64,000 bases of DNA from Deltaproteobacteria bacterium (GTDB lineage: Bacteria > Desulfobacterota > Deferrimicrobia > Deferrimicrobiales > Deferrimicrobiaceae). Location: the NCBI GenBank assembly GCA_050263095.1, contig JBLNEW010000027.1, positions 25,485 to 89,484 on the forward strand. Reading direction: 5' to 3'. Shown here one piece after another: positions 2,986-31,311 of this stretch (its first letter is position 1; every line of letters starts with the position of its first letter). A program made the position numbers and the translations under genes. The notes below the pieces were generated by a model, which was given only the letters and a program-made list of their open reading frames with translations, had not been told where the DNA came from and searched no databases.

Positions 2986-3081
2986 TGGCGGAAGCGCGAG
3001 GGAATCGAACCCTCCGAAGACATTTCTGCCTCCCGGCCGGATTTGAAGTCCGGGGGGGCCACCAGCGCCCCATCCGCTTCC
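2986..3081 (-). tRNA. selC: tRNA-Sec (anticodon UCA), selC-like, about 96 nt with encoded CCA
   Basis: Minus-strand sequence GGAAGCGG...CCGGA-CTTCAAA-TCCGG...long GC-rich variable arm...GAGGGTTCGATTCCCTC-GCGCTTCC-G-CCA. The 7-nt anticodon loop has UCA at positions 34-36. The architecture (8-bp-type acceptor, long extra arm) closely parallels E. coli selC (GGAAG...GGACUUCAAAUCC...AGGUUCGACUCC...CUUCCGCCA). Confidence 0.85.
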
Positions 3082-3278
3082 GTCGTGCGCGAGCCGATCC
3101 CCCGCAGGGGAAAGGGATTTACTTCTGCTTCGTCGCTTCCTTGGCGCGCCGTTTCTTCGACTTGTCCTTCCGGTGCCGGCGCCGCCGGATTTCCCGTTTA
3201 CGTTCGGTCGTCATGCGAACCCCCGCGCAAATCTTTGGATACAGGCGCGGACATTATAGCAAAGGGAAGGGAGGAACG

Positions 3279-4043
3279 ATGAGACGAATCCTGATCCTTG
3301 CGGCGGTCATGTCCCTCATGGCGGCGGTACCCGCGAACGCCCTGGTCGACGGCGAGGTGGGCGCTCGAGCTATGTTCTGGTTCCCGGACCTCTCCGGAGA
3401 CGTGCAGACCGAGGTTTCCGGCGTCCAGGGGACAAAGTTCGACATCAAGGACGACCTCAACGTGGGAGACGAGAACTTCCCTTCGGGAGAGGCCTTCGTG
3501 CGCTTCGGGCGGCTCCATTTCCGGGTGGGATACACCCCGGTCAAGTTCGACGGCAACAAGCAGCTGACCCGCCAGATCGTCTTCAACAACCAGACGTTCA
3601 ACGTCAACGACAACGTCGTCTCGCAACTGGACCTGAAGATGATCGACGGGGAGGTGCAGTTCGATCTATTGAGGCCGGACATTGCCGTCGTCGGCTTCAA
3701 CCTGGGACTCATCCTGAAAGTTAAATACGTGGACGGCACCGTCGAGCTCAGAAGCACGACGGCGACCGAAACGAGGGACTTCAAGGCCCCCATCCCGATG
3801 GTGGGCGTTGCGGCGGGGGTAGGGATAATCAAGGACATGTTGCGGGCCGACGCGCGCGTCACCGGGATTTCCTATTCCGGCAACCACCTGTTCGAGGGGG
3901 ACGTTTTCGCATCCTTTTCCCCGCTCCCGTTCGTCGCGATCCAGGGAGGGTATCGACTCATCGATCTGAAGATCGACGAGGACGACATCGAAGCGACGCT
4001 GAAACTTAAGGGCCCGTATGTGGGCGCGCAGGTTTCCTTCTAG
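3279..4043 (+). CDS. Small outer-membrane beta-barrel protein (signal peptide, C-terminal Phe)
   Basis: Signal peptide MRRILILAAVMSLMAAVPANA. Alternating amphipathic beta-strand pattern. Terminal ...YVGAQVSF, ending in the aromatic Phe typical of outer-membrane barrel proteins. GGGAGG ribosome-binding site before the ATG at 3279. Confidence 0.55.
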   Translation: MRRILILAAVMSLMAAVPANALVDGEVGARAMFWFPDLSGDVQTEVSGVQGTKFDIKDDLNVGDENFPSGEAFVRFGRLHFRVGYTPVKFDGNKQLTRQIVFNNQTFNVNDNVVSQLDLKMIDGEVQFDLLRPDIAVVGFNLGLILKVKYVDGTVELRSTTATETRDFKAPIPMVGVAAGVGIIKDMLRADARVTGISYSGNHLFEGDVFASFSPLPFVAIQGGYRLIDLKIDEDDIEATLKLKGPYVGAQVSF

Positions 4044-4172
4044 GCGACAGCAAGTAAATTCATGACTTTTCAAGTACTTGAGAAAGGAGCAGATATCGGC
4101 GACATAAATAAATATCCGGTGATATAGTATCGCCATCTATCCGTTATAGAACAATTTCGGAGGAGGGGATCG

Positions 4173-4973
4173 ATGAAAAAGGCGCTCTTGCTCCTGATGC
4201 TGGTCTTCGTGTTTTCGAGTGCTGCCTTCGCTCAAACGGTGGTCAAGAAAAAGAGACCCCTCCCGTATGAATTCGGCAAGGTCGTCATAAGCAATTTTTC
4301 CGAAAAGTCAGGACTTGCGCCGGTGGTGTTCGACCATTGGCTTCACAGGGCGAAATATACCTGCAGGCTCTGCCACGTGGACATCGGCTTCGCGATGAAG
4401 GCGGGGGCAACCGGCATCAAGGCTTCCGACAACATCAACGGTTACTATTGCGGGGCGTGCCACAACGGCAAATTGGTCTCCGATAACAAGAAGGTGTTCG
4501 ATTCCTGCGGCAAGCTGTCGATAAGCCAGGACCGGGCCAATTGCTTTCGCTGCCACTCGTTGGGAAAGAACGTGAAGCCGGAGTACGATTTCAATCAATT
4601 CACGAAAAACTTCCCCAAAGGGCGGTTCGGAAACGGCATCGACTGGGAGAAGGCGGAAGAGGGGAAATGGATCAATCCCGTGGATTTTCTGGAGGGGATC
4701 TCCATTCAGCGGAAATCCATTTCCGAGCAGAAGGACTTCGCACTCGGAGCGAAGGTGGAAGGAATGCCCGATATCATCTTCTCCCACAAGAAGCACACCG
4801 TGTGGAACGGATGCGAGCTTTGCCATCCGGAAATATTCATCGGCGTGAAGAAGGGAGCGTCGAAATACTCTATGGTGGACATATTCGAAGGGAAATCCTG
4901 CGGCGTATGTCATACGACGGTGGCATTCCCATTGCTGGATTGCCAGCGTTGCCACACGAAACCGGTCAAGTAG
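4173..4973 (+). CDS. Periplasmic hexahaem c-type cytochrome (6 CxxCH)
   Basis: Signal peptide. Haem motifs CRLCH, CGACH, CFRCH, CELCH, CGVCH and CQRCH. GGAGGAGG ribosome-binding site. Confidence 0.85.
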   Translation: MKKALLLLMLVFVFSSAAFAQTVVKKKRPLPYEFGKVVISNFSEKSGLAPVVFDHWLHRAKYTCRLCHVDIGFAMKAGATGIKASDNINGYYCGACHNGKLVSDNKKVFDSCGKLSISQDRANCFRCHSLGKNVKPEYDFNQFTKNFPKGRFGNGIDWEKAEEGKWINPVDFLEGISIQRKSISEQKDFALGAKVEGMPDIIFSHKKHTVWNGCELCHPEIFIGVKKGASKYSMVDIFEGKSCGVCHTTVAFPLLDCQRCHTKPVK

Positions 4974-4988
4974 AAGAGCGACAACGGG

Positions 4989-5321
4989 ATGAAATCGCCA
5001 AGGAGAATTGCGATCTGGATTTTGTTTGCACTGATATGCTGCCTCGTCACGGCGGATGAAGGGGACATCGGCATCTTCCGGGCAGGAATCGCTCACGCAC
5101 AGGAGGATTGGAGGAAGGAGTTCGACGACGTCTGTTCCAGAACCCAGGACGCCATGGTGATTTCTTCCGGCGAATTGAAAAATCTCGTGGACAGATGCGA
5201 CAAGTTGAAACCGCGAATCGAAAAACTCGATGAATCGCAAAGGAAGGTTTATTTGAAGAGACTTCATATGTGCAGGGATCTGTATTTCTTCGTTCTGGAA
5301 TCCAGGGAGAAAAAGCAGTAG
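4989..5321 (+). CDS. Small hypothetical membrane/secreted protein
   Basis: 110-aa ORF with an N-terminal hydrophobic segment (IAIWILFALICCLVTA), sandwiched between two paralogous cytochrome genes. Confidence 0.4.
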   Translation: MKSPRRIAIWILFALICCLVTADEGDIGIFRAGIAHAQEDWRKEFDDVCSRTQDAMVISSGELKNLVDRCDKLKPRIEKLDESQRKVYLKRLHMCRDLYFFVLESREKKQ

Positions 5322-5325
5322 GTCG

Positions 5326-6114
5326 ATGAAGTTTTTAAAGAGTCTAGGTTACCTGCTCCTGCTCCTTTACCCGATTTCCGCGCCCTCCATGAGAATCACC
5401 CCTCCGCACGAATACGGCCGGGTGATACTTAACAACTTTTCAGGAAGTGCAGGCATCGCCCCTGTGGAATTCGACCACTGGCTTCACCGGGCCATGTTTA
5501 CCTGCCGGCTATGCCACGTAGACATCGGTTTCGCAATGGAAGGCGGAGCCACGAAAATAAAGGCGGCCACCAATCGGGACGGCTTTCACTGTGGCGCGTG
5601 CCATAACGGAAAAACCGCGTACAAGGGGAAAACGATCTTCCCTTCATGCGCGGATAATTCCGCCCGTGCGGGGTCAAGCCTTTGTGACATGTGTCATTCC
5701 GTGAAGGACAAAACCAACAGTAAAAAACAATTCGGCGAATTCATAGGGAAATTTCCCAAGAAAGGGCTTGGAAACACGGTTGACTGGGAAGAGGCGGAGG
5801 CGAAAGGATTTATCAGGCCGCTTGATTTCATGGAAGGCGTATCGATAAAGAGGTCACCTCTGAAAATGGAGAAAGAGATCTCCATAGAATCCAGGGTAAC
5901 CTGGATGTCGGATGTCATGTTCTCCCATAAAAAACACGCAGTGTGGAACGGCTGCGAAGTCTGTCACCCCGAGATCTTCCCCAGCACAAAACAGGGGACG
6001 CTGAAATACACAATGTTTCAAATAGTAAACGGTGAATATTGCGGCGTATGCCACGACAAGGTTGCGTTTCCCATCATCGAATGCCAGAGGTGCCATACCA
6101 AACCTGTTCGATGA
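5326..6114 (+). CDS. Periplasmic hexahaem c-type cytochrome, paralogue of 4173..4973
   Basis: Six CxxCH motifs (CRLCH, CGACH, CDMCH, CEVCH, CGVCH, CQRCH). Shares blocks such as FDHWLHRA.FTCRLCHVDIGFAM and CGVCH...AFP..CQRCHTKPV with the upstream gene. Confidence 0.85.
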   Translation: MKFLKSLGYLLLLLYPISAPSMRITPPHEYGRVILNNFSGSAGIAPVEFDHWLHRAMFTCRLCHVDIGFAMEGGATKIKAATNRDGFHCGACHNGKTAYKGKTIFPSCADNSARAGSSLCDMCHSVKDKTNSKKQFGEFIGKFPKKGLGNTVDWEEAEAKGFIRPLDFMEGVSIKRSPLKMEKEISIESRVTWMSDVMFSHKKHAVWNGCEVCHPEIFPSTKQGTLKYTMFQIVNGEYCGVCHDKVAFPIIECQRCHTKPVR

Positions 6115-6198: not shown

Positions 6199-6273
6199 GG
6201 GCGCTTAACTCAGCGGTAGAGTGCCACCTTCACACGGTGGAAGTCACAGGTTCAAGTCCTGTAGCGCCCACCA
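6199..6273 (+). tRNA. tRNA-Val (anticodon CAC) with encoded CCA
   Basis: GGGCGCT acceptor stem, D-arm ACTCAGCGGTAGAGT, anticodon stem CCACC/GGTGG with loop TTCACAC (CAC at positions 34-36), T-arm ACAGGTTCAAGTCCTGT, then AGCGCCC-A-CCA. Confidence 0.85.
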
Positions 6274-6462
6274 TGGCTTTGTCCCATGCCCGCGCTCTCC
6301 GTATACAGGACATGACCTTCACACCCGAAAATGGCCATCTAGAGAGGAAAATAAACCGTCTGGCACGCGCCAGGACCCGCTTGATTTGGAAAAACGCGGC
6401 GATGCCAATTCTAAAAACTTGCTAAACCGCCATGGGATAAGAGGCCGAACGGGAAGAGACCA

Positions 6463-9400
6463 ATGAAGAAAAAACATGAAAATATTTTTTTCCTGCTGTT
6501 TGCCGTTTCGGGGTTTTCTGGCCTCATTTACGAATCGATCTGGACGCATTATTTAAAGCTCTTTTTGGGTCATGCTGCGTATGCTCAAACATTGGTATTG
6601 GGGATCTTCATGGGGGGAATGGCGCTTGGCTCCTGGCTCTGCGCCAAATATTCCATTCGCTGGAAAAATCTTATTGCCGCATACGGCTTGGCTGAAGCCG
6701 CAATCGGACTGTTTGCCATTTTTTTCCATTCCATTTTTGTCCAAGCAATTAATTATTCCTATGAGGACGCCATTCCACGTCTGGAGTCCGCTACGACGAT
6801 AATTTTGTTCAAATGGATCCTATCCGCTTTGCTAATAACGCCTCAGTCCGTTCTGCTCGGAATGACATTTCCCCTGATGAGCGGAGGAATTCTTCGGGGA
6901 TCCACGCAAGGGCCCGGCAAGATCATAGCCATGCTCTATTTTACAAACAGCATCGGGGCATCGATCGGGGTATTGGCGAGCGGATTTGCCCTAATTCGTT
7001 TTGCGGGCCTGCCCGGGACCGTCATGGTTGCCGGATTCATCAATCTGGTTTTGGCAGCAATCATATTGTGGATGGCCAGAAACAATTCTCCATTTCAACA
7101 AGCACATTCCGTTGAAATTGAAAAGCCGGGAAAGCCTGCGATGGACGGTTGGATTCCGGGCTTCCTGGTGGTTTCATTGGTTACCGGGTCGGCGTCTTTC
7201 ATATACGAAATTGGATGGATAAGGATGCTGAGCTTAGTGTTGGGAAGCTCCACGCATGCATTTGAATTAATGCTTAGCGCGTTTATCCTGGGCCTTGCGC
7301 TCGGCGGGTTTTGGATCAAGGGCCGGCTGGACAGAATTGCCGATCCCGCGCGTTTCCTGTCGTACGTTCAGATCTTTATGGGACTTTTTGCCCTTTCTAC
7401 TCTCCTCGTTTATGAACATACATTCGTTGTCATGCAATGGCTGATGAAAGTTATAGATCGGTCCGAGACCGGATATTTCGCATTTAACCTGGCCAGTCAT
7501 GCCATCGCCATCTCCGTCATGCTCCCCGCAACATTTTGTGCGGGGATGACACTGCCGATTATAACCTTCCTCATGATTCGTCAAGGATACGGCGAAAAAA
7601 GCATTGGTGCAGTTTATACGGCGAATACGATCGGCGCAATCGCTGGTGTCTTTTTTGCCATTCATTTCGGCATGCCATTGTTGGGGCTTAAGGGATTAAT
7701 AACGCTCGGGGCCGCTCTGGACATGGCTCTTGGACTCTTGCTTTTATGGAAGGCATCAGCTTATAGCGGCAAGCGAATTCCAGCTGCAGCCACGGCAGCA
7801 ATCGCCTGCGTAGTAATGGCAACTGCGTATTTCGTTAAGCTCGATCCCTACAAAATGGCGTCGGGAGTTTATCGCTACGGCAGCCTGCTGACAGCGGAAG
7901 ACAGCAAGCTCATCTTTCACGAAGATGGCAAAACGGCGACCGTCAGTTTATCATTGCGAAGCGATGGCATTATCAATGTTCGCACGAATGGCAAGTCGGA
8001 TGGAGCGATCAACGTGGATTCGAAAGGCCAACCTGAAATCGACGAAAATACAACAGTCCTTCTCGCGGTTATACCTATGTCACTTAACCCCAACGCAAAG
8101 ATTACAGCAAATATCGGACTCGGCACGGGCCTGACAACACAGACGCTGCTAAGTTTTGACAGCATTACACAGGTAGACACCGTTGAAATAGAAACAGAGA
8201 TGGTCAAGGCTGCGAAACTTATCGGTCGTCGCGTAGAGGCTGTATATACGGATCCGAGGAGCAGAATCTACATCGACGATGCAAAAACGTTCTTTTCGGC
8301 AAGAAAAACAAAATACGACATTATTATCTCAGAACCGTCAAATCCATGGGTCAGCGGCGTCGCCGGACTTTTTTCCGAAGAATTCTATCATTTGATCAAG
8401 CGGAATCTTGCAGATAACGGATTATTCGTTCAGTGGCTGCAGCTTTACGAAATAGATGTAAACCTAATCATGTCGGTGTTGAAAGCTATGTCATTGCATT
8501 TCTCGGATTTCATCGCATACGCAGCACATAATGGCGACATGATCATCGTTGCAAAAGAGAATGGAGTTATTTCGGGCGCGGACTCATGGATTTTCAGGAA
8601 CCAAAAAGTCGCCGAGGATTTGAGAAGAATCAATATCGAAAGCATGCAAGACATCGATATTCGGAAGATAGGAAATAAGAAATTCCTACACAAGCTGGTG
8701 GAGTCGTCTCCCATAAAAGCGAATTCCGATTATTACCCGATTCTCGGTCAAAATGCTGCCCGTGCACGCTTTCTCAATGCAGATGCATATGCTTTGCATA
8801 ATTTATCTCATGAGCCTTTGCCGACGATGGATATGATTCTAGGAAGGACTGCTCCGTGGGAAACGATTGTTACACCGTCTGTAGTCCTTTCCAAAACGCA
8901 ACTCGCCCATAACGCTATGGGAATAAGGGATTTTTTCCTGTGCGGAAGGTTTGACGAGAAATACCGAAATGTTCCGGAGGTGATTAAGAAGGAAGCTGTA
9001 CTGCTCAAGCGTCAATATAACGAATGCGATTCTGGGCAAAGCGTTCCCGAAAGGATATCTGTCCTGTTTAATACGGCTGTTGCTATAACCCCATATTTAT
9101 CACCGCGAGAATTAGGTTATATCTGGGGGATAATCGAACGGAATTCGTGTGCATCATTCATTACGCCCGTAGAGAAAAATTGGATTTATTTATTCAAGGC
9201 GATTGGGAATCGAGACGCCAAAGCGATGGTCGACGGCGCAAAAACACTATTGAGAAGCGGGGAAATAAAGGAGATTATTGCATTGAAATATGTTGTCGCT
9301 TCCGGCATGCTTGGCTCTCTAATCCTGGAGGATAAAGAGGAGGCTTTCCGTTTCTGGTCCAGTTACAGGCCCGTGTTATTAATGGATGGCAACCCGGATT

Positions 9401-9468: not shown

Positions 9469-9506
9469 TAATTGGAAGTTATATCCAGCGCAAATGAGGC
9501 AGGACA

Positions 9507-12476: not shown

Positions 12477-12521
12477 TGAAGATGGCATAATTTTTTTATA
12501 ATTATTGGCTTTAATGCGTCA

Positions 12522-15535: not shown

Positions 15536-15539
15536 TTCA

Positions 15540-24034: not shown

Positions 24035-24587
24035 GAAGATCGTTGACCGCCTTTTCAGTAACGATGTTCATCGGCTCGCCGCCTCCACCGAACAGACGGT
24101 CTGCTGTGGAGACTCCGCCTTTGGTGGAAGAACCAGACCACACAATCCTTCCAGTGCGGCCTTCGATCATCTGAAGGCTGACGGAGACTATATTGGCCAC
24201 GCTCGTTCCAGAACGAACCTCTCCGTATTCCCGCACAGTTCCTGTAACCACAGCGTCTGCCTTTACGATCGTCGCTAACTTCAGTATTTCTTCGGTTGTC
24301 GGCGCTGCCGGAGCAGTAATTCCTGCCCTTGATATCCCGCGCCCCACTTCTCCGGGGGGTATAACGTAGACTCCCTGGGTAGCGAGAAGCATAGTGATGA
24401 AAACATCTCTAACACGGTCAGCGGCGGATGTTTCCCTCGAAAGGTTGGCGAAAGGCATTACGGCCACGTTCTGCACAAGCCCAAAATCCATGTTCGGGTC
24501 CCGGAAGGATCCCTGAGTCGTGCCAAGGGTGGAAGCGCATCCGACTGAAACCACTATAAAGACGAGGATGATTCCGATTTTTTTCAT
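24012..24587 (-). CDS. Small lipoprotein with an LpoB/CsgG/DUF799-like domain
   Basis: MKKIGIILVFIVVSVGCAS lipobox. NVAVMPFANLSRETSAADRVRDVFITMLLATQGVYVIPPGEV...AVVTGTV matches the two C-terminal modules of the giant lipoprotein. The listed ORF start at 24620 is an upstream extension. Confidence 0.6.
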   Translation of the reverse strand: MKKIGIILVFIVVSVGCASTLGTTQGSFRDPNMDFGLVQNVAVMPFANLSRETSAADRVRDVFITMLLATQGVYVIPPGEVGRGISRAGITAPAAPTTEEILKLATIVKADAVVTGTVREYGEVRSGTSVANIVSVSLQMIEGRTGRIVWSGSSTKGGVSTADRLFGGGGEPMNIVTEKAVNDLLDKLFGK

Positions 24588-24646
24588 CCTGTCCCTCGTT
24601 TCTGTCGAGATAATTACCATTATATTCCGCTAAACCCCGCGCATGC

Positions 24647-26872
24647 TCAGAAAGCAAGATGCAAATTCGTACTCACGACCTCGTTCTTATTTTTTTGGGA
24701 AGGAGCATCGTTGTTAAGATACTGATAGGACAAATCAACATACCTACCCCTGTTGCCGCCTATATTCCACCGAAGGCTGGGGATGATTCTCCTTTCCCTG
24801 CTGTTGTCTTCCGTATGGATCGTCTCGTTGTAATTAAAGTTGAGGTTAAGTGTCCCGTCCGGGAAAGGTGACCAGTTCGCCGAATAATTCCATGTTGTTG
24901 TATTGGTCGAATTGCCCAAACTCGTACTCCTGGTTCTCTGCAATGAGCCGAAGATATAGAGAGTGCGGAGTGGATTATAGGTAACCGAAATCCCGCCAGT
25001 CCGCTGTTTATCAGTAGTCTCATCGGAGTTACCCCCAAGCGTCCGCATCGTGTCCGACTCAAAGTACGCGAGATTGACGGTCATCGTTCGATGGGGAACC
25101 AACGTCAGTCCTGCATTTAATTGAATGGTCTCGATCTTCGCAGCCGTACTCGATTTCTGTACGCTTCCTCCCGCTCCTATATTTGCATCCACACCATCAT
25201 ATAAATGCGCACTATTGACAAAGGTGATGGAGTTCGTTTCGTTTTTTTCCTGCCCGGATTCCCGCGTCTGTCCCGTGTATACGACAGAGTGGTGGAGCGT
25301 TTGCAACGGGGTCGCCGAGATCGAAGCGGTATATGTGTAACCCAACTGCTGTTCCCCTGTCTGATCCTTGCTGTCCTCCCGCGAAACCCTTGCGAATCCT
25401 GAAAATATCCGCCCGAACTCGCGGTTGAATGAAAGCCCGTTGGATAGATCGTATGCCGAAGGCAAGGAGGAATTCTTAAGCAGGAAGTACGAAAGCTCGT
25501 AATACAGGTTCTGATTTTTCAAGAGCTTCGCGCGTGCATTAAAGTTGTAGCGATGATTGGTTCTGACCACCTTAGGGTTTATATCGGCGGCCTGCCTCCT
25601 CAGCGTAGCCTGGAGTTCCGTCACGAGGATGTTCGGGAAGTTGTTCGCAAACGGAACGGCCGACGACAGCGGTCTGGTAACGACTTTGATGTATCGGGTT
25701 GTCACTGTATCGAAGTCGATCTGGAACCTGGTCACGAACGGCCCGAAAACCGCCGGGAACACCGCCCTGTGGAGATTCCAGGTCCTGTTGTCTTCGCTAG
25801 TATAGACTTCCCAGGAAAACGTTCCGGCGATATCTTGCGGAATATCCCTGTCGACCCAAACAAGGAGGGAATTCACCTGTGTATCCAGAAAAAAATCCAA
25901 GCCCATGCTTCGTGGTCGGGAGTCCCCCGAAGGCGGTGGCAGTCCGAGATTGATTCCCGTCCCGGCGGCGAAATCCCCATCAATGAGGGCCGGATTGGAG
26001 TCAAGAGTAATCAGCAATGGAGTGTCGTTTATCGATGAAAGACCGGCGACCGGAGAAAGAGGAAAGCTTACCTCGCCTGAACCTCCTTTGGAAAATTCCG
26101 TATCACTATGAAAAATATAATAATTCGAACTAATCGAGATCCGGTTTTTCCACCACGATTCCGAATAGGTCACGCTGCCCTCGTGGGACGTATTCCGGCT
26201 TTCGATATTTTGCAGATTGTTGCGGTTTTTGTTTATTGCTCCGCCGTATCGTAGACTAACCGATTTTACAGGTTGATAATTCGCGGTCAACTGGAAGCTG
26301 TCATCGGTACCATCGTTTATCCTGCGTTCCTTGTCGAAAGTGTCCGTATGGAAATATCGGAAAAATGTTTCGGGAAACCCATCCGGCCTCCACCCCAGGG
26401 TTGCGAAGTATGTCTGTCTCACTGTCGTTAGCGGTGTGGTTGTAGAGGTCTTGACTTCTTGTTCCGTCCGGCTGTATCCCCCTTCGGCCTGATATAGAGG
26501 CGTTCTAAGGTTCAGGATTATGAATGGCCTCATTTTCGTATCGGCAATATTGTTCTCACGACCTTCAAGTTCCGTTATCAATGCATTCCGCTCAAACAGC
26601 CCGCCTGCGACTACGCCAAGATTGGGGAAAATACGTTTGTCGAGCGTCAAAGAATACCGCTGGATGAACGAATCGCTTTTCGATTCGGTTGTAAGTCCGG
26701 CTGCATCCTCGTTCTTGGAAGCCGCCTTCGTGAATATGAAATCCATATATCCGTTCATCCCATCCGCTGCGACTTGCTCAACGATAAGGACCGAAATCAT
26801 AAATAATACAGCAGAGAATCGCAGCGCAGGGAAATTCCTTTTTCCCGATGGTATCCTTGCTTCCTTTCGCAC
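24647..26872 (-). CDS. Large (741 aa) outer-membrane beta-barrel protein, uncharacterised
   Basis: Signal peptide. Extensive alternating beta-strand pattern rich in Y, N, T and G. C-terminus ...VVSTNLHLAF, ending in the terminal Phe signature of outer-membrane barrel proteins. Sits 5 nt downstream of the YVTN gene. Confidence 0.6.
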   Translation of the reverse strand: MRKEARIPSGKRNFPALRFSAVLFMISVLIVEQVAADGMNGYMDFIFTKAASKNEDAAGLTTESKSDSFIQRYSLTLDKRIFPNLGVVAGGLFERNALITELEGRENNIADTKMRPFIILNLRTPLYQAEGGYSRTEQEVKTSTTTPLTTVRQTYFATLGWRPDGFPETFFRYFHTDTFDKERRINDGTDDSFQLTANYQPVKSVSLRYGGAINKNRNNLQNIESRNTSHEGSVTYSESWWKNRISISSNYYIFHSDTEFSKGGSGEVSFPLSPVAGLSSINDTPLLITLDSNPALIDGDFAAGTGINLGLPPPSGDSRPRSMGLDFFLDTQVNSLLVWVDRDIPQDIAGTFSWEVYTSEDNRTWNLHRAVFPAVFGPFVTRFQIDFDTVTTRYIKVVTRPLSSAVPFANNFPNILVTELQATLRRQAADINPKVVRTNHRYNFNARAKLLKNQNLYYELSYFLLKNSSLPSAYDLSNGLSFNREFGRIFSGFARVSREDSKDQTGEQQLGYTYTASISATPLQTLHHSVVYTGQTRESGQEKNETNSITFVNSAHLYDGVDANIGAGGSVQKSSTAAKIETIQLNAGLTLVPHRTMTVNLAYFESDTMRTLGGNSDETTDKQRTGGISVTYNPLRTLYIFGSLQRTRSTSLGNSTNTTTWNYSANWSPFPDGTLNLNFNYNETIHTEDNSRERRIIPSLRWNIGGNRGRYVDLSYQYLNNDAPSQKNKNEVVSTNLHLAF

Positions 26873-26877
26873 CCAAC

Positions 26878-28278
26878 CTACCTTTCTCCCATGATTGTCA
26901 CCCGGAACGGCTCTTCTCCTACTTCGATTTCCGCAAAGGCTTCCTTGCTCACCAAACGGATTCCCTTGACCGTTTTTTCTCCCGGAAGCACGAGGAAAAG
27001 GCTGTTCCCCTCACCGTCGATCGCCATAAAGGCGACCTCGCCCGGCACGGCGATAAAATCGATGGGAAGAAACGAGAAGGGATCGTAGATATCAATCTTG
27101 CCGGTATGCTGTCGCGCCAGGTAGATCCAGTTGTTTTGGTGATCCACCTTCAACGCGGTCGCTCCTGTTCCCACGCGGATCTTGTTGATGATCGAAAAGG
27201 AAAATGGATTAATCACGTATAAATACGGGGAAGATCGATGAGCGACATAAAATCGGCTCCCGTCCCGATTGAATCCCCCACTTACGGGCTCCGAATCCGT
27301 GGATATCGTTGCCGCCACCTGTTGGCTTGGCAGGTCGATCACAGAAACAGAGTTGGATAAGCGGTTCAATATGTACGCTCTTCTGCCGTTCTGATCTATT
27401 TGAAGCGACTCCGGTCCTTTCCCCACATTGATTCGCAAAACTTCAATCAGGGACGCGGTGTTGATCACGCTTACCGTGTTCGATCCGACATTTACGGAAA
27501 GAAGTTTTCCTCCATCCGGCGTCAATGCAAGTTCGCGCGGATAATCTCCGCCGGCGAGATGCAGGCGGTTGTCGACCTCGCCCGTGAGGACGTCGATGAC
27601 TTCGACGGCATCTTCTCCGGAAAGGGCGACATATAATTTTGCTTTCCTTCGGTCCAGCGCCAACCCGGAAGGTGCCGTTCCGGTGGGGACCACGGAAATC
27701 ACATGTCCGGTCAGCTTGTCAAATATCGTCACCGTGTTCGAGTCGCGGCTGGAAGCATACCCAATCAATCCACTTGGAATTTTACCCGGGATGTCGATGT
27801 CAAATACGGGTGATATGCGGAAGCCGCCGTGAAGGGAATCCTGATATCTATATGAAAGTTTAAGGACGGTGCCGCGTTTCCTGCCAACCGTGAAGGGGAT
27901 CACTGTACGAGTGGCTTCCGAAGGCACAAGCACCACAGCTTCCCCTTCCTCCCCTTTCAGCGAGGCAGACTCGATCTTAAAGGCGATGCCAGCATACCGC
28001 CCGGGAGGAAGCGTACCGGAGGCGATCATTCGCTCCTTCGTAACCTCGATTCGATTCACGTCCGTTAAGGAAAGAACCATAGGAAATTCCGCCCCGTCTT
28101 CGCGCAGCGCGGAAATTCCTCCGATGCGGAATGAAAGCCGTCCCGCTTCTTGGGAGAGAGGGGCGATATACAGATAAATCGCTCCATCGTCCTCAAGTGC
28201 AGGTCTGACAAGGGATTTTTTTGCCTGGCATCCCCATAACGGCAGAAATACAGCAAGAATGATCGCAATGCGCTTCAA
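26878..28278 (-). CDS. Lipoprotein with a YVTN-family beta-propeller
   Basis: Lipobox LWGCQA. Repeated YVTN-like units of about 40 aa (SGLALDRRKAKLYVALSGEDAVEVIDVLTGEV; PRELALTPDGGKLLSVNVGSNTVSVINTASL; SLQIDQNGRRAYILNRLSNSVSVIDLPS...). Confidence 0.65.
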   Translation of the reverse strand: MKRIAIILAVFLPLWGCQAKKSLVRPALEDDGAIYLYIAPLSQEAGRLSFRIGGISALREDGAEFPMVLSLTDVNRIEVTKERMIASGTLPPGRYAGIAFKIESASLKGEEGEAVVLVPSEATRTVIPFTVGRKRGTVLKLSYRYQDSLHGGFRISPVFDIDIPGKIPSGLIGYASSRDSNTVTIFDKLTGHVISVVPTGTAPSGLALDRRKAKLYVALSGEDAVEVIDVLTGEVDNRLHLAGGDYPRELALTPDGGKLLSVNVGSNTVSVINTASLIEVLRINVGKGPESLQIDQNGRRAYILNRLSNSVSVIDLPSQQVAATISTDSEPVSGGFNRDGSRFYVAHRSSPYLYVINPFSFSIINKIRVGTGATALKVDHQNNWIYLARQHTGKIDIYDPFSFLPIDFIAVPGEVAFMAIDGEGNSLFLVLPGEKTVKGIRLVSKEAFAEIEVGEEPFRVTIMGER

Positions 28279-28375
28279 GACTTGCTCCGGTTTTTTTCGC
28301 CAATCATTCGATGACGCGATGTAACAAGCCTATCCCACAGAGCGTTTGCGGGCAATTGATAAAAGGTTATCGACT

Positions 28376-28412
28376 AATAAAAAGGGGCCGGCGTACAAGG
28401 CCGGCCCCTTTG
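28376..28412 (-). terminator. Rho-independent terminator downstream of the OmcS-like gene
   Basis: Perfect 9-bp GC stem GGGGCCGGC / GCCGGCCCC (28384-28392 / 28400-28408) with loop GTACAAG. On the minus strand it is followed by a T-run (rc of TAAAAAGG). Confidence 0.7.
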
Positions 28413-28459
28413 ATTATGCCTTCCTCGCCGGATTGTTTAATTCCGGCAAGCCCGCGAAC

Positions 28460-29710
28460 TTAATCCTTCGCGTGGCACTTGTTGCAAAGAACTCTCTGAT
28501 ATGCGCCAAAGCTGGATGCAGGGCGGTTATAGTATGCGGCATTTGCCTGCTCCTGGTTGCGGCCAATCGAGCTAGACGGCCAAAGCACGTTGCCGCCAGA
28601 TACAGTGGTAAGGAACTCGCTCTCACCGTACCAACGCAGCATTTCCGGGAATCCGGAGGCATGGGCGCGGTGGCAAGAAAGGCACATCACCTGGGCGCCT
28701 TGTGTGGGATAGGTCAAGTTTGAGTCATTGTCATTCGCAAAAGACTTGATCACATTGTATGAACCGGAGTTTACGGCGTACGGTACAAGCGAAAGATACG
28801 AGTTGTCGCTGGTGTTCGTCATTTTCCCCGAGCTCATATACGTCTGGTAGTTGCTTGCAAATGTGTTATTCAATGTTTGGTCGACCGGGTGGACGGTATT
28901 GCCCGAGCTGTGCATGCCCGCATGGCACGTCTTGCACCAATTGCCCCATGTGGTATTGCCGGCTGCGTTGCCGACTCCGTAGGAGACGCGCACCTGGTTG
29001 TCCGACTCATCGTGGTTATAGCTGCTGGGCGATATCGCCGCAGGAGCTCCAAGGTAGCCGATCGCGCCAGCCGCAGTCGTCGAGTACCCGGAGCCGGCAA
29101 GCAGACGATATGTACCTACGGCTGCTGTAGCAGTCGGAGCCGCTTTCGTCGTGGAGCCGGAGCCCATAATGGGATATCCCGTCTTGACGATAGTATCATC
29201 AACCAGCCTGCGGAACTGTCCGTGCTGATCATGGCAGGAATTGCAGTGAAGCGCGTTGGACTGGAATGACCCGCCGGGAGCCTGGGCGTTCGTGGCGTCG
29301 GCGGTCATACCATGGTCGACGGCAACGATGTTATGTCCGTGGCTGTCACCTGTTTCATTCGTCGTTTCGCCGTGCGCGGTGAAGGTGAAGGGAATGCGAA
29401 CCCACTGAAAATCTCCGCCCGGCGTATAATTGGCGGGTTTCCCGCCCAGGGCGATTCTGTCCGCATCGGTGGTGAGAATATGATAGCTGCTGGGCGTAGT
29501 AGCGCCCGCTACCATGTGGCAGTTAAGACAAGTGGAGCTTGGATCGCTGCCTTTCAGCAATAAAGTTCCGCTGCCTGCGGCGGGGGAATGCATGCTATGG
29601 CAGCCGGCGCAATCGGCAACGCCGCCCCCGTGAAATGCGTAAGTAGTGCCCGCCCCTAGCGCCAAAAAGGCCGCCGCAAGGATGATGACGCTTACTTTCA
29701 TCGCTTTCAT
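28460..29710 (-). CDS. OmcS-family hexahaem c-type cytochrome (candidate extracellular nanowire subunit)
   Basis: Signal peptide, then the mature N-terminus FHGGGVADCAGCHSMH. Six CxxCH motifs (CAGCH, CLNCH, CNSCH, CKTCH, CLSCH, CNKCH). Conserved blocks shared with Geobacter OmcS as I recall it: SSTCLNCH, PSSYHI, TPGGDF.WV, GHNIVA, LHC.SCHD.HG.FRR.VD, G.YR.L.G.GY, CLSCHRAHASGF, AAYY.R, F..YQR.LCNKCHAKD at the C-terminus. Thr/Ser/Gly/Ala-rich. Confidence 0.8.
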   Translation of the reverse strand: MKAMKVSVIILAAAFLALGAGTTYAFHGGGVADCAGCHSMHSPAAGSGTLLLKGSDPSSTCLNCHMVAGATTPSSYHILTTDADRIALGGKPANYTPGGDFQWVRIPFTFTAHGETTNETGDSHGHNIVAVDHGMTADATNAQAPGGSFQSNALHCNSCHDQHGQFRRLVDDTIVKTGYPIMGSGSTTKAAPTATAAVGTYRLLAGSGYSTTAAGAIGYLGAPAAISPSSYNHDESDNQVRVSYGVGNAAGNTTWGNWCKTCHAGMHSSGNTVHPVDQTLNNTFASNYQTYMSSGKMTNTSDNSYLSLVPYAVNSGSYNVIKSFANDNDSNLTYPTQGAQVMCLSCHRAHASGFPEMLRWYGESEFLTTVSGGNVLWPSSSIGRNQEQANAAYYNRPASSFGAYQRVLCNKCHAKD

Positions 29711-29942
29711 TTCCCCTCCTCTTTCGCTCCGGCAGCCCGGCCGTCCTTCCTTTCAGCCTATCCAGGACCCGTCGGCTTTGCGCCCCCACCTCTCGATGGG
29801 TTTACCCTTTTCGGAGGAGTGTCTTGGGTTGAATGCCGGTAACCACGCCCTCAATGACTCTTTCTCCTCTGAACGAGAATCTCGATTCCCCTGCAAGCCA
29901 CCCCCTCTCCCTCATGACATGGATTCCACTGCCTTCAATCAA

Positions 29943-30935
29943 TCAGTTCGCGGTAACGGAAAAAACGCTGACTCCAGCCTTCGGAGACTGCGTGACGTAG
30001 ACCTGTCCATTGTTCCCTAACGCTACGGACGCAGGAGCGATCAGGTTGCCGGGTGCGCTTCCCCTAAATCCAAACTCCGTGAGGAATTTGAAGTTTCGGT
30101 TGAAGACCATCACAACGCACTTCAACTTATCGGTCACAAAAATATTTCCGTCGTTATCCACCGCGATACCGGACACAACGCCGAACATTCCGGGGGCGCC
30201 GCCTGGCTTTCCGAAAGAAAATACTTTTCCCTCAGGGGAAACCTTGTATGCCTTGAAATTCACTGGCACCGTGAAGTAGAAGTTTTCTTCCCGGTCGACA
30301 TAGAAACCAAAAAATTCGGTATCGGGGCGCTCGTTCTCATCAACCCCGATAATCGCGCCGAAATTGAAACCCTTTTCGAAAACTCCCCTTTTATCCGTAA
30401 CTATCGCCGTCATCCCTCTCAAGTTGGCGAAAAAGAATCGCCCATTGCGGTAATACATGCAGTTCGGTCCATATTCGGAATATTCCGGGGGGAGGTTCGA
30501 TAACGTGATTTTTTCTATAAGTTTTCCCCGGTAATTACACCTGCAAAGGTAAAACCTGCGCTTCGCGATTCCTTCCGCGGAAGGGTAGTCGGAAGGGGGA
30601 TAATCATAGGAAAGCAGATAGATGTCGCCATCCTCGTCTACGACAATCCCGTAAATCCCGCCCAGTTCCTGCGTCTCAAGGAAAGAATAGATTTCCATGC
30701 CGCTTTCGTTGAAAATACGGACCGATCCCCCGTCGTCAACGTAGACCTCATTGTGTTGGCTATCGACGGAGACCCTCACCTGACTGTATGGAATAGTGCC
30801 GGAAAAATCAGAAAGTTTATAAAGATATCTGGCCGTGATTCCCGATTGAGCGATAGATGGAAATATCGAAAATATGAACGGGACCCACATAAGTGAAAGA
30901 AAAAGTCGAGTCGCATTATTTATAGCAGCATGCAT
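29943..30935 (-). CDS. Secreted NHL-like beta-propeller protein (first gene of the cluster)
   Basis: NHL-type units (GIVVDEDGDIYLL, GIAVDNDGNIFVTD, NNGQVYVTQ). Signal-like MHAAINNATRLFLSLMWVPFIFSIFPSIAQS. The listed ORF starts at 30977; the ATG at 30935 gives a cleaner signal peptide. Confidence 0.55.
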   Translation of the reverse strand: MHAAINNATRLFLSLMWVPFIFSIFPSIAQSGITARYLYKLSDFSGTIPYSQVRVSVDSQHNEVYVDDGGSVRIFNESGMEIYSFLETQELGGIYGIVVDEDGDIYLLSYDYPPSDYPSAEGIAKRRFYLCRCNYRGKLIEKITLSNLPPEYSEYGPNCMYYRNGRFFFANLRGMTAIVTDKRGVFEKGFNFGAIIGVDENERPDTEFFGFYVDREENFYFTVPVNFKAYKVSPEGKVFSFGKPGGAPGMFGVVSGIAVDNDGNIFVTDKLKCVVMVFNRNFKFLTEFGFRGSAPGNLIAPASVALGNNGQVYVTQSPKAGVSVFSVTAN

Positions 30936-31156
30936 GGCGTCGTATGATTCTGCAATGGACATGCCACAACTTAGCATGCAAAATAACCAGCAATATAAGC
31001 CATTTACGGCATTGAGAAACAGCAGAAAAGCATGAGTTGGTGGAAATCCTTATCTCCCCCGGGGAAATCACCAATTGTGTGAATGAAGCAGGTCAGGCAA
31101 GCGGAAAGCTTACTTCGCGTGCGTCAGGTAGAAGAATCGCACGTTAGAATGGGTAA

Positions 31157-31202
31157 TATCACCATATATTCATGGGTGTTATCACCATAGATCCATATGG
31201 AT
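31157..31202. promoter_or_regulatory. Candidate operator repeats in the divergent intergenic region
   Basis: Direct repeats TATCACCATA at 31157-31166 and 31180-31189 (23-nt phasing), immediately followed by the perfect 12-bp palindrome ATCCATATGGAT (31191-31202). An AT-rich 330-nt region between the NHL/OmcS cluster and the REC-PilZ gene. Confidence 0.35.
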
Positions 31203-31311
31203 AATTGAATCTGGTTTTATCCCGGAAGACCTAACTGTTCGATTTGAAACGTTGCTTGCTGACATTAAATGAATTGATTATTAAGGCATGTAAATTGCTC
31301 ATGGTTTAAGC

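What the first reader, a model, noticed from the sequence alone, without database searches (positions are those of the whole stretch)
2986..31311. tRNA-Sec (selC-like) gene at the edge of a roughly 28-kb lower-GC accessory block carrying the cytochrome loci
A 96-nt tRNA with a UCA anticodon, a long variable arm and E. coli selC-like arms sits at 2986..3081. To its left the DNA is core-like and GC-rich. From about 3.1 kb to about 31.3 kb G+C is visibly lower and patchy: about 45-55% in most cytochrome-cluster genes, with a 6.3-14.6 kb island that is strongly AT-rich. It returns to about 65% from the regulator genes onward. selC is a classic integration hotspot for genomic islands in enterobacteria. 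No integrase or direct repeat of the tRNA 3' end was found, so this may be an old, decayed insertion or simply compositional heterogeneity. The tRNA also implies a selenoprotein toolkit (selABD) elsewhere in the genome.
Basis: partly seen in the sequence, partly recalled or inferred. Interest (0 to 1): 0.55.

Follow-up and report, generated by a model that had tools for sequence, protein, structure and literature searches.

The report
Swapped nanowire-cytochrome cassette beside tRNA-Val
The selenocysteine tRNA is real but is an uninvolved neighbour: the low-GC DNA is mostly a 25-kb, horizontally acquired gene cassette for OmcS-type cytochrome "nanowires", and it sits in a variable spot that starts at the end of a different tRNA gene (tRNA-Val).

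Summary
The tRNA-Sec gene (2986..3081, minus strand) and the GC drop are both real, but the selC-island reading fails. The 3' end of the tRNA faces QueH, 47 bp away. The low-GC DNA lies on its 5' side, behind an outer-membrane-protein gene (OMP) of core composition. The order tRNA-Sec(-) / OMP / tRNA-Val(CAC)(+) recurs across 32 Deferrimicrobiaceae-type MAG loci.

DNA homology with the two closest relatives stops exactly at the tRNA-Val 3' end (6274). It resumes at 31336, inside the RR-PilZ gene. Between these anchors the window has 25.06 kb, and relatives have about 19.5 kb, 14.3 kb or only 0.2 kb.

The cassette is 48.5% G+C (GC3 0.53, against 0.80 in core genes). It encodes an OmcS homologue behind a c-di-GMP-type riboswitch, an eight-gene companion block like the Geobacter osc block, two fused MFS/spermidine-synthase-like genes, and a 35%-GC TPR gene.

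The sister genome has the same gene order at this site, but its proteins are only 43-59% identical (flanks 79-97%). Six of seven cassette proteins are closer to a more distant genome than to the sister. No integrase or att repeat is present in the window. One relative carries a restriction-modification islet bounded by a 47-nt tRNA-Val repeat.

Verdict: ordinary lateral cassette exchange at a tRNA-Val plasticity zone.

The parts
2986..3081 (-). tRNA-Sec (anticodon UCA, CCA encoded). A conserved core landmark, not an island junction.
   Evidence: ARAGORN. Rfam RF01852, 73.1 bits. Same position and orientation in 30 of 32 family loci.
3119..3214 (-). 31-codon, very basic ORF (MTTERKREIRRRRHRKDKSKKRRAKEATKQK) directly upstream of tRNA-Sec on the same strand.
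   Evidence: Read from the sequence. Found in 9 of the 22 loci examined, including the window; absent from those with short gaps.
3279..4043 (+). Outer-membrane beta-barrel protein gene (OMP) of core composition (GC3 0.84). It separates tRNA-Sec from the low-GC DNA.
   Evidence: Homologues at 97, 87 and 77% identity and below, named 'outer membrane protein' by JGI. GC3. In 32 family loci it lies between tRNA-Sec and tRNA-Val.
4173..6114 (+). Clade-specific insertion between the OMP gene and tRNA-Val. It holds two hexahaem cytochromes, each with two c7-type trihaem domains (4173-4973 and 5326-6114), and a 110-aa ORF (4989-5321). GC3 0.61-0.74.
   Evidence: Pfam Cytochrome_C7. NCBIfam nanowire_3heme. 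Present in L005-L009 at 78-96% aa identity. Absent from all 32 more distant loci, where the OMP-to-tRNA-Val gap is at most 181 bp.
6199..6273 (+). tRNA-Val(CAC). Its 3' end is the left boundary of the variable region.
   Evidence: ARAGORN and Rfam. Nucleotide homology with L005 and L006 ends at 6274. A 47-nt direct repeat of its 3' part bounds a restriction-modification islet in L032.
6274..31335 (.). 25.06-kb cassette of foreign composition (48.5% G+C, about 95% coding) between tRNA-Val and RR-PilZ.
   Evidence: Both junctions are spanned at 99.7-100% identity by separate assemblies: L046, L048 and L049 on the left, L001 and L002 on the right.
6463..12476 (+). Two paralogous ~1000-aa fused MFS/spermidine-synthase-like membrane proteins (6463-9468 and 9507-12476). 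The second has C-terminal TPR repeats.
   Evidence: Pfam Spermine_synth, MFS_1 and TPR. NCBIfam NF037959.
12522..14579 (-). 685-aa TPR protein gene, 35% G+C, GC3 0.32. It is a compositional outlier even within the cassette and is probably a nested, younger acquisition.
   Evidence: delta* of 157 against the rest of the block.
14627..20524 (-). Distal half of the osc-like block. NHL beta-propeller (14627-15535), 16-CxxCH cytochrome (15540-16811), 26-CxxCH 659-aa cytochrome (16822-18801), and SurA-like PPIase (18830-20524).
   Evidence: Pfam. CxxCH counts. Gene calls from L046. The literature describes GSU2495 as ~70 kDa with 26 haems, and GSU2496 (OscH) as a prolyl isomerase (bioRxiv 10.1101/2025.11.06.686851; PMC13194489).
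20612..28278 (-). Proximal half of the osc-like block. 1140-aa Ig/PKD-repeat protein (20612-24034), GNA1162-like lipoprotein (24012-24587), ~720-aa protein with no known domain (24647-26800), and beta-propeller (26878-28278).
   Evidence: Pfam. NCBIfam. Gene calls from L001. Same order in sister locus L042 and in L052.
28460..29710 (-). Hexahaem OmcS homologue (416 aa).
   Evidence: phmmer against PDB 6EF8 OmcS: E 2.4e-95, full length. The six CxxCH motifs and the His aligned with OmcS His16 are kept.
29727..29815 (-). Cyclic-dinucleotide riboswitch aptamer (GEMM-I clan) in the leader of the OmcS gene.
   Evidence: Rfam RF03167, 62.6 bits against a gathering score of 59. Homologous leaders in the sister score as RF01051. 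The aligned leaders show 85% mean column identity.
29943..30962 (-). NHL/beta-propeller protein, the last gene of the cassette.
   Evidence: Pfam. Gene call from L001.
31312..35747 (.). Conserved right flank. RR-PilZ (+), sigma54-type response regulator (-), HAMP histidine kinase (-), and periplasmic phosphonate-binding-like protein (-). Homology with relatives resumes at 31336.
   Evidence: Pfam. 79-90% aa identity to the sister. Associated with OmcS-like genes in L024, L032 and L052.

Best explanation
The interval is a composite of four pieces.
(1) tRNA-Sec, a small basic ORF and an OMP gene (2986-4043) are core DNA.
(2) A pair of c7-type cytochrome genes (4.1-6.1 kb) is an older insertion, shared only with the closest relatives.
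(3) tRNA-Val(CAC) lies at 6199-6273.
(4) A 25-kb cassette (6274-31335) fills a plasticity zone between the 3' end of tRNA-Val and the RR-PilZ gene.

The cassette is a complete OmcS-type cytochrome-filament module. It holds an OmcS homologue behind a cyclic-dinucleotide riboswitch and an eight-gene companion block: beta-propeller, three putative secretion components, PPIase, 26-haem and 16-haem cytochromes, and an NHL protein. It also carries two fused MFS/spermidine-synthase-like genes and an AT-rich TPR gene.

It came by horizontal transfer from a lower-GC lineage that is hardly sampled. It displaced, or arrived instead of, the version carried by the sister genome.

Inferred, not shown: the present arrangement most likely arose by recombination in the conserved flanks (tRNA-Val and the c7 genes on the left, RR-PilZ and the sigma54 regulator on the right). 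The zone itself was probably opened by site-specific integration into tRNA-Val. tRNA-Sec plays no part.
For: Boundaries. Nucleotide homology with the sister (L005/L042, GCA_040960215.1) runs 1-6274 at 86-94% and 31336-42016 at 88%. With the 87% relative (L006/L044) it stops and restarts at the same two points.

Variable content between the same anchors:
- window: 25.06 kb;
- sister: about 19.5 kb;
- L006/L044: 14.3 kb, with TetR, an RND efflux system and other genes;
- L013 and L040: 220-250 bp;
- L033, L012 and L016: tRNA-Val lies 18-90 bp from the methyltransferase gene that sits at 35.8 kb in the window.

Foreign composition. GC3 is 0.53 in the cassette and 0.80 in core genes, p = 2e-6; delta* is 101 against 22.

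Divergence. Cassette proteins are 43-59% identical to the sister's copies, which are in the same order. Flanking proteins are 79-97% identical.

Incongruence. In 6 of 7 genes the window's protein is closer to L052 (50-71%) than to the sister. L052's regulators are only 44-60% identical to the window's.

Isolation. The best non-self hit of the PPIase among 5.8 billion proteins is 50% identical (66% over a fragment). The OMP gene has hits at 97, 87 and 77%. The only close relative of the cassette, L055, is equally low in G+C (48.7%; 76.6% nt identity).

Not a property of this gene class. The same cluster has GC3 0.81-0.92 in L052 and 0.66-0.79 in the sister.

tRNA-Val is used as an attachment site in the family. 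L032 carries a 3.2-kb XamI-type restriction-modification islet between tRNA-Val and a 47-nt repeat of its 3' part, followed by the conserved native downstream motif.

Identity falls toward both junctions: from 92-95% to about 80% on the left, and it climbs from 73% to 87% on the right.

Both junctions are spanned by other assemblies.

OmcS identity is shown. The description of the osc block comes from PMC13194489 and bioRxiv 10.1101/2025.11.06.686851.
Against: - The window contains no integrase, transposase, att repeat or displaced native downstream motif, so the entry mechanism is inferred.
- The direction of replacement is inferred from composition alone. It could be the window's cassette, the sister's, or both.
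- The falling identity near the junctions could reflect relaxed constraint rather than recombination tracts.
- The donor lineage was not identified.
- About 4.9 kb of the sister's block was not seen.
- Orthology with the Geobacter osc genes rests on gene order, domains and haem counts. Apart from OmcS, no direct sequence comparison was possible.
Confidence: 0.75

Rival explanations
1. Integrase-mediated genomic island at tRNA-Val. The 25-kb cassette, or an ancestor of it, entered by site-specific recombination into the 3' half of tRNA-Val. The integrase gene and the distal att repeat were later deleted. This overlaps with the best explanation and differs only in the last step.
For: The cassette abuts the CCA end of tRNA-Val exactly. 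L032 shows a textbook 47-nt tRNA-Val 3' repeat bounding foreign cargo. L024 and L025 carry typical accessory genes (SRAP, HipA) within a few kb downstream of tRNA-Val.
Against: There is no recombinase domain in any main ORF, and 95% coding density leaves no room for a pseudogene. No tRNA-Val repeat with up to 4 of 25 mismatches was found, and no native downstream motif, anywhere in 64 kb. The sister holds a cluster in the same gene order in the same slot. Allelic exchange explains that more simply than two independent integrations.
Confidence: 0.3
2. selC-anchored genomic island, old and decayed. The block from 3.1 to 31.3 kb integrated at tRNA-Sec.
For: tRNA-Sec is real and lies within 1 kb of the start of the GC decline. 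Three relatives (L013, L034, L035) carry 21-28-nt repeats of the tRNA-Sec 3' end, so tRNA-Sec has been an attachment site in this family.
Against: Those scars lie on the 3' (QueH) side. In the window that side has only 47 bp. The low-GC DNA is on the 5' side, beyond an OMP gene with GC3 0.84 that holds the same place in 32 loci. No tRNA-Sec repeat exists in the window. Synteny breaks at tRNA-Val, not at tRNA-Sec.
Confidence: 0.03
3. Vertical inheritance with fast evolution. The cluster was present in the common ancestor of the window and the sister. It diverged quickly, as multihaem cytochrome loci are reported to do, and drifted to low G+C.
For: Same gene order and same site in the sister. 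Elevated substitution rates and turnover are reported for Geobacter multihaem cytochromes (bioRxiv 10.1101/2025.11.06.686851).
Against: The non-cytochrome genes (PPIase, propellers, lipoprotein, Ig-like protein) are as divergent as the cytochromes. The drop of roughly 0.2-0.3 in GC3 affects every gene and stops sharply at both anchors. The three-taxon comparison groups the window with L052, against the species signal, in 6 of 7 genes. A 76.6%-identical low-GC relative exists on another contig.
Confidence: 0.07
4. Assembly or binning chimera. A low-GC fragment from another organism was joined at the conserved tRNA-Val sequence.
For: tRNA genes are conserved repeats at which metagenome assemblers can mis-join. 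Several sibling contigs (L047, L050, L051) end at 6155-6195.
Against: Separate assemblies from other samples span the left junction (L046 at 100% over 3647-16114; L048; L049) and the right junction (L001 at 100% over 23606-32736; L002). Both flanks belong to the same syntenic backbone. Relatives hold a homologous cluster in the same slot.
Confidence: 0.02

Closest known systems
Geobacter sulfurreducens omcS-osc ('omcS companion') operon, GSU2504-GSU2493
   Same: A hexahaem OmcS homologue (E 2.4e-95 to PDB 6EF8), preceded by a GEMM-I-clan riboswitch. It is followed by a beta-propeller, three genes in the position of OscE/F/G, a PPIase, a ~70-kDa 26-haem cytochrome, a second multihaem cytochrome and an NHL protein. 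This is the order described for GSU2500-2493 (PMC13194489; bioRxiv 10.1101/2025.11.06.686851).
   Different: The host is a Deferrimicrobiaceae-type (MBNT15-related) MAG lineage, not Desulfuromonadia. The cluster has only one OmcS paralogue, with no OmcT or GSU2501-type copy. OmcS identity is about 45%. Fused MFS/spermidine-synthase-like and TPR genes are attached. Filament formation has not been tested.
selC-associated islands of Enterobacteria (for example LEE and SHI-2; from general knowledge)
   Same: A tRNA-Sec gene lies close to low-GC accessory DNA.
   Different: Those islands lie at the 3' end of selC, start with a P4-like integrase gene and are bounded by selC-derived repeats. Here the block is on the 5' side, behind core genes, with no integrase or repeat.
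tRNA-linked islets and plasticity zones with att duplication (example in this family: L032)
   Same: Foreign DNA starts immediately after the CCA end of tRNA-Val. Content differs among close relatives.
   Different: The window lacks the 47-nt distal repeat and any recombinase. Its cargo is 25 kb of respiratory and secretion genes rather than a restriction-modification system.
Cassette-type surface-structure loci exchanged through conserved flanks (O-antigen and capsule loci; from general knowledge). This is a working analogy only.
   Same: Conserved flanking genes, functionally equivalent but highly divergent alleles in the same slot, and lower G+C than the genome.
   Different: The products are extracellular cytochrome filaments and their export machinery, not polysaccharides. 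Diversifying selection has not been shown.

Membership tests
tRNA-Sec (Rfam RF01852) | Covariance-model score above the gathering threshold, UCA anticodon and a long variable arm | tested here: met
   73.1 bits against 47, E 4e-13, full model 1-91. ARAGORN reports tRNA-SeC(tca), 96 nt.
selC-anchored genomic island | Island DNA directly abuts the 3' end of the tRNA-Sec gene | tested here: not met
   The 3' end at 2986 faces QueH (stop at 2938). The low-GC DNA is on the 5' side, beyond 3119-4043, which is core DNA.
selC-anchored genomic island | Distal direct repeat of the tRNA-Sec 3' part | tested here: not met
   No second copy of the 27-mer at up to 3 mismatches. The 18-mer gives only two 3-mismatch hits, at 20838 on the opposite strand and at 58958 well outside the block; I read both as chance. 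One search finds nothing further in the window.
selC-anchored genomic island | Integrase gene at the tRNA-proximal end | tested here: not met
   Pfam on all main ORFs from 531 to 35747 shows no recombinase.
tRNA-Val-anchored island / plasticity zone | Foreign DNA begins at the 3' end of the tRNA, and content varies among close relatives | tested here: met
   Homology with L005 and L006 ends at 6274. Between the same anchors there are 25.06, ~19.5, 14.3 or ~0.2 kb.
tRNA-Val-anchored island / plasticity zone | Atypical base composition and codon usage | tested here: met
   GC3 0.53 against 0.80, p = 2e-6; delta* 101 against 22.
tRNA-Val-anchored island / plasticity zone | Integrase and flanking att repeats in the window | tested here: not met
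   An att-type 47-nt repeat occurs only in relative L032.
OmcS-type cytochrome filament subunit | Full-length homology to OmcS, with six CxxCH motifs and the inter-subunit His16 ligand | tested here: met
   E 2.4e-95 over residues 26-416 against 1-407 of 6EF8. The alignment shows FHGGGVADCAGCHSMH against FHSGGVAECEGCHTMH. Six CxxCH motifs.
omcS-osc cluster | Eight-gene companion block downstream of the hexahaem gene (propeller, OscEFG-like, PPIase, 26-haem cytochrome, multihaem cytochrome, NHL) | tested here: met
   Gene order, domains and haem counts match the published description (PMC13194489; bioRxiv 10.1101/2025.11.06.686851).
omcS-osc cluster | Sequence orthology of each companion gene to GSU2500-GSU2493 | not testable with these tools
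omcS-osc cluster | Assembly of conductive filaments | not testable with these tools
   This needs experiments.

The most novel reading that the evidence does not exclude
In this uncultured lineage, OmcS-filament modules may behave like surface-antigen cassettes. Whole omcS-osc clusters, highly divergent but functionally equivalent and low in G+C, would be swapped through conserved flanks at a single tRNA-Val-linked slot next to their c-di-GMP/sigma54 regulators. That would imply diversifying selection on extracellular nanowires, for example from phage, predators or mineral niche, and a gene pool from an unsampled low-GC donor.
Probability: 0.15. Interest if true: 0.55.

Novelty: new member of a known kind. 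Interest (0 to 1): 0.3.

Why it matters
- It corrects a plausible but wrong landmark. The nearest "classic" tRNA (selC) is not the anchor; the neighbouring tRNA-Val is. tRNA orientation alone would have shown this.
- It documents lateral exchange of an entire OmcS nanowire-assembly cluster as one 25-kb unit in a Deferrimicrobiaceae-type lineage. Close relatives carry alternative contents in the same slot. This fits the proposal that multihaem cytochrome repertoires turn over by horizontal transfer.
- It cautions against inferring extracellular electron transfer capacity for a whole MAG lineage from one genome.
- It is not a new kind of element or mechanism.

Tried and rejected
- Searched for repeats of the tRNA-Sec 3' and 5' ends, the tRNA-Val 3' end, and the family's native post-tRNA-Val motif in the window. 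Nothing credible was found: two 3-mismatch hits to the tRNA-Sec 18-mer, at 20838 and 58958, look like chance.
- Looked for words shared between the two cassette ends. The longest is 9 nt, inverted, which is within chance (shuffle mean 8.5, maximum 11).
- Ran Pfam on ORFs downstream of tRNA-Val in L019, L024, L025, L029 and L032 to find an integrase. None was found; hits were restriction-modification genes, HipA, SRAP, an exonuclease and a response regulator. Many of these ORFs were picked by length alone in high-GC DNA and may be out of frame, so this is a weak negative.
- Tested whether MAG contigs break more often just downstream of tRNA-Val: 10 against 3 within 1 kb. This is only a trend (p = 0.09).
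- Searched for the donor. The OmcS protein gave at most 50% identity in JGI metagenome contigs and no match in plasmids. 8 kb of cassette DNA gave no match in plasmids.
- Looked for selA, selB or selD in the window. None was found among the ten large ORFs tested in the right-hand 21 kb (43-64 kb).
- The published osc paper (Shen et al. 2025) is not in the searchable library. Its content is cited second-hand from PMC13194489 and bioRxiv 10.1101/2025.11.06.686851.
- The first look-up with the long QueH ORF failed because the start codon was wrong.

Full report
OBSERVATION. ARAGORN finds a 96-nt tRNA-Sec (anticodon UCA) at 2986..3081 on the minus strand, and a tRNA-Val(CAC) at 6199..6273 on the plus strand. 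Rfam confirms both: RF01852 at 73.1 bits against a gathering score of 47, and RF00005 at 69.7 bits. It also reports a GEMM-I-clan riboswitch at 29727..29815 on the minus strand.

The compositional drop is real:
- 1-4043: 61.4% G+C
- 4044-6198: 50.5%
- 6274-31311: 48.5%
- 12.2-14.6 kb: 35.6%
- 31312-64000: 63.1%

Third-position G+C (GC3) separates the gene sets completely. Nineteen core genes average 0.80+-0.05 and 13 block genes average 0.53+-0.08 (Mann-Whitney p = 2e-6). The dinucleotide distance delta* between the block and the right-hand core is 101, against 22 between the two halves of the core.

Three details of the description need correcting. G+C does not fall at the tRNA-Sec gene, because 3082-4043 is core-like. 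Only 12.2-14.6 kb is strongly AT-rich. And the tRNA-Sec gene is on the minus strand.

GEOMETRY AROUND tRNA-Sec. The CCA end of tRNA-Sec is at 2986. The QueH gene stops 47 bp further left, at 2938. On the 5' side lie a 31-codon basic ORF (3119..3214, minus strand) and an outer-membrane beta-barrel (OMP) gene (3279..4043, GC3 0.84). From general knowledge, elements that use tRNA genes as attachment sites lie at the 3' side of the tRNA. The low-GC DNA is on the wrong side here. No copy of either end of tRNA-Sec occurs elsewhere in the window.

COMPARATIVE DATA. The OMP gene has many close homologues, at 97, 87 and 77% identity and below. Source names point to 'Candidatus Deferrimicrobium' and similar 65%-GC 'Deltaproteobacteria' MAGs.

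A scan of species-representative genomes returned 32 loci. Thirty carry tRNA-Sec(-) just upstream of the OMP gene. Wherever the contig continues, except in two divergent loci (L039, L041), tRNA-Val(CAC)(+) follows the OMP gene within 181 bp. The family-wide order is M50 peptidase(-), QueH(+), tRNA-Sec(-), OMP(+), tRNA-Val(+). After tRNA-Val there are two common patterns:
- In L033, L012 and L016 the methyltransferase and CysS genes follow directly, 18-90 bp after tRNA-Val. The same two genes lie at 35.8-38.2 kb in the window.
- In L013 and L040 the order is RR-PilZ(+), histidine kinase(-), periplasmic binding protein(-), then those two genes. RR-PilZ starts 220-250 bp after tRNA-Val.

So tRNA-Sec and the OMP gene are a fixed core landmark. 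The c7-type cytochrome pair (4173-6114) occurs only in the window and its nearest relatives, L005-L009. It is a separate insertion upstream of tRNA-Val.

BOUNDARIES OF THE BLOCK. The sister genome is GCA_040960215.1, seen through loci L005 and L042. Its nucleotide homology with the window runs 1-6274 at 86-94% and 31336-42016 at 88%. Nothing lies between except the riboswitch and two weak multihaem or lipoprotein matches. The 87% relative (one JGI contig, seen through L006 and L044) stops and restarts at the same two positions.

From record coordinates, the distance from the tRNA-Val 3' end to the RR-PilZ start is about 19.5 kb in the sister and 14.3 kb in the 87% relative. In the window it is 25.06 kb. 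The 87% relative fills the slot with different genes: a transglutaminase-like gene, TetR, an RND efflux system, TPR, a spermidine-synthase-like gene and an OmcS-like gene.

The window's block is therefore 6274..31335. About 95% of it is coding, by 13 genes.

CONTENT. The 416-aa cytochrome at 28460..29710 is a full-length OmcS homologue. It matches PDB 6EF8 at E 2.4e-95. All six CxxCH motifs and the histidine aligned with OmcS His16 are conserved. The riboswitch precedes it.

Downstream on the same strand come, in order:
- a beta-propeller;
- a ~720-aa protein with no known domain;
- a GNA1162-like lipoprotein;
- a 1140-aa Ig/PKD-repeat protein;
- a SurA-like PPIase;
- a 659-aa cytochrome with 26 CxxCH motifs;
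- a cytochrome with 16 CxxCH motifs;
- an NHL propeller.

This is the order described for the Geobacter sulfurreducens 'omcS companion' (osc) genes GSU2500-GSU2493. In that system the proposed roles are OscD in filament morphology, OscE/F/G in secretion and OscH, a prolyl isomerase, in folding. GSU2495 is described as ~70 kDa with 26 haems (PMC13194489; bioRxiv 10.1101/2025.11.06.686851). I could not compare the companion proteins with Geobacter sequences directly.

The left third of the block holds two fused MFS/spermidine-synthase-like genes (NCBIfam NF037959) and a 685-aa TPR gene at 35% G+C and GC3 0.32. The TPR gene is a compositional outlier even within the block (delta* 157), so it is probably a nested, later arrival.

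VERTICAL OR LATERAL? The sister carries the same gene order in the same slot, plus two extra OmcS paralogues. Its proteins are only 43-59% identical to the window's, whereas flanking proteins are 79-97% identical. Its GC3 there is 0.66-0.79.

A more distant genome, L052 (GCA_040960625.1), has regulators only 44-60% identical to the window's. Yet its companion proteins are closer to the window's (50-71%) than the sister's are. In 6 of 7 genes the three-way comparison groups the window with L052, against the species signal. In L052 the cluster has GC3 0.81-0.92, so low G+C is not a property of this gene class.

The window's PPIase has no non-self hit above 50% full-length identity among 5.8 billion proteins. 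The only closer relative is a 3.5-kb JGI contig, L055. It is 76.6% nt identical to window 16353..19843 and is itself 48.7% G+C. The OmcS protein has no relative above 50% in JGI metagenome contigs and none on plasmids.

These results fit lateral acquisition or exchange of the whole cassette from a poorly sampled, lower-GC source. They do not fit fast vertical divergence. Non-cytochrome genes are as divergent as the cytochromes, and the compositional shift ends sharply at both anchors.

ARTEFACT CHECK. Separate assemblies from sibling samples span the left junction: L046 at 100% over 3647-16114, L048 and L049. Others span the right junction: L001 at 100% over 23606-32736, and L002. Some sibling contigs end at 6155-6195. 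One of them (L047) continues with unrelated AT-rich sequence, which hints at population heterogeneity just before tRNA-Val.

MECHANISM OF ENTRY. No recombinase domain was found in any main ORF. There is no att-type repeat. The motif that follows tRNA-Val in several relatives (CGGAAAGTCGTCGAACCGG) is absent from the window. The two ends of the block share no word longer than 9 nt.

tRNA-Val is nevertheless a real attachment site in this family. In L032, a 3.2-kb islet encoding a XamI-type endonuclease and an Eco57I-like methylase lies between tRNA-Val and a 47-nt direct repeat of its 3' part. The native downstream motif follows that repeat.

Identity to the sister declines toward both junctions. 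On the left it falls from 92-95% to about 80%. On the right it climbs from 73% to 87%.

My inference is as follows. The zone was opened by site-specific integration at tRNA-Val. The present cassette most likely arrived by recombination in the conserved flanks, replacing a homologous cluster. The alternative is integrase-mediated entry followed by loss of the integrase and the distal repeat. I weight that alternative at about 0.3.

THE selC IDEA AT FAMILY LEVEL. Three relatives (L013, L034, L035) carry direct repeats of the tRNA-Sec 3' end, 140-350 bp beyond it on the QueH side. The repeats are 21-22 nt and perfect in L013 and L034, and match at 28 of 34 positions in L035. So tRNA-Sec has been used as an attachment site in the family, and on the expected side. 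The window shows no such scar, and the low-GC block is unrelated to it.

COMPARISON AND NOVELTY. The cargo is a new member of the known omcS-osc kind, in a lineage related to MBNT15/Deferrimicrobium. The one paper on that lineage in the library does not mention OmcS (PMC9386147). The setting is an ordinary tRNA-linked plasticity zone. Horizontal gain and loss of omcS-like genes has already been proposed for Geobacter (bioRxiv 10.1101/2025.11.06.686851).

What is specific here is the clean three-state polymorphism of one slot in near relatives, and the whole-cluster swap.

VERDICT. The accessory and foreign nature of 6274-31335 is well supported. Interest is modest.

Noticed in passing
window 3119..3214 (-): A 31-codon, extremely basic ORF (MTTERKREIRRRRHRKDKSKKRRAKEATKQK) lies immediately upstream of tRNA-Sec on the same strand. 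A nearly identical N-terminus is found in 9 of the 22 loci examined, including the window. It is absent where the tRNA-Sec/OMP gap is only 84 nt. It may be a real small protein gene co-transcribed with the tRNA.
   Followed up: partly
L013 ~8725-8751, L034 ~4516-4542, L035 ~6092-6118: Direct repeats of the tRNA-Sec 3' end lie 140-350 bp beyond the tRNA on its 3' (QueH) side. L013 and L034 have GATTCCCTCACGCTTCCGCCA, perfect. L035 matches at 28 of 34 positions. These look like att-type scars of past integration at tRNA-Sec in relatives. The window has none.
   Followed up: partly
L032 10828..14157: A 3.2-kb islet encodes a XamI-type restriction endonuclease and an Eco57I-like methylase. It is bounded by tRNA-Val and a 47-nt direct repeat of the tRNA's 3' part, which ARAGORN miscalls as a second tRNA-Val. 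No integrase was seen in it.
   Followed up: partly
window 29727..29815 (-); L042 7112..7192 (-); L005 16603..16684 (+): The riboswitch in the OmcS leader scores as the c-di-GMP-I-GGC variant (62.6 bits, just above the gathering score of 59). The sister's two homologous leaders score as canonical c-di-GMP-I. The aligned leaders show 85% mean column identity, and the window has a longer insert in one loop. The ligand (c-di-GMP or cGAMP) is open. The RNA is far better conserved than the downstream protein (43-45%).
   Followed up: partly
window 12522..14579 (-): This 685-aa TPR protein gene has 35% G+C and GC3 0.32, far below even the rest of the low-GC cassette. Its N-terminal ~440 residues have no domain hit. 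It is likely a nested, more recent acquisition from a still lower-GC source.
   Followed up: partly
L055 (JGI 3300038409, Ga0436468_0045268), matching window 16353..19843: This 3.5-kb contig at 48.7% G+C is the only close relative of the cassette found. It is 76.6% nt identical, and its 26-haem cytochrome is 79% aa identical. It comes from the same metagenome as the 87% relative, and its genomic background is unknown.
   Followed up: partly
L047 10831..10905 (corresponds to just after window 6155): A sibling-sample contig is identical to the window up to 6155, 44 bp before tRNA-Val. It then continues with 75 nt of unrelated AT-rich sequence (GTTAAGAGCAAATAGAAATGTCCGG...) that is not found in the window or in any other fetched locus. 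This could be a strain variant or the end of a mobile element.
   Followed up: partly
L005 10909..13920 (-), against window 4044..4172: The sister genome has a 1003-aa spermidine-synthase-like membrane protein gene inserted between the OMP gene and the first c7 cytochrome gene, where the window has a 129-bp spacer. It is only 25-29% identical to the window's two paralogues at 6463-12476.
   Followed up: no
L024 and L032 (about 1-4600); L052 1-19000: An OmcS-like gene lies next to the sigma54 response regulator, histidine kinase and periplasmic binding protein genes in several family members, even where this module sits elsewhere (upstream of the M50 gene, or wrapped around the osc block). This suggests that the two-component system regulates the cytochrome cluster.
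   Followed up: no
L038 10996..19547 and L028 5781..7247: In some relatives the DNA after tRNA-Val looks like a NiFe-hydrogenase large subunit (N-terminus MARTI.IDPITRLEGHGKIEIFLND), with further large ORFs beside it in L038. These identifications rest only on reading the N-terminal sequences and were not tested. Genes of this class are often selenoproteins in related bacteria, which may bear on the tRNA-Sec neighbour.
   Followed up: no
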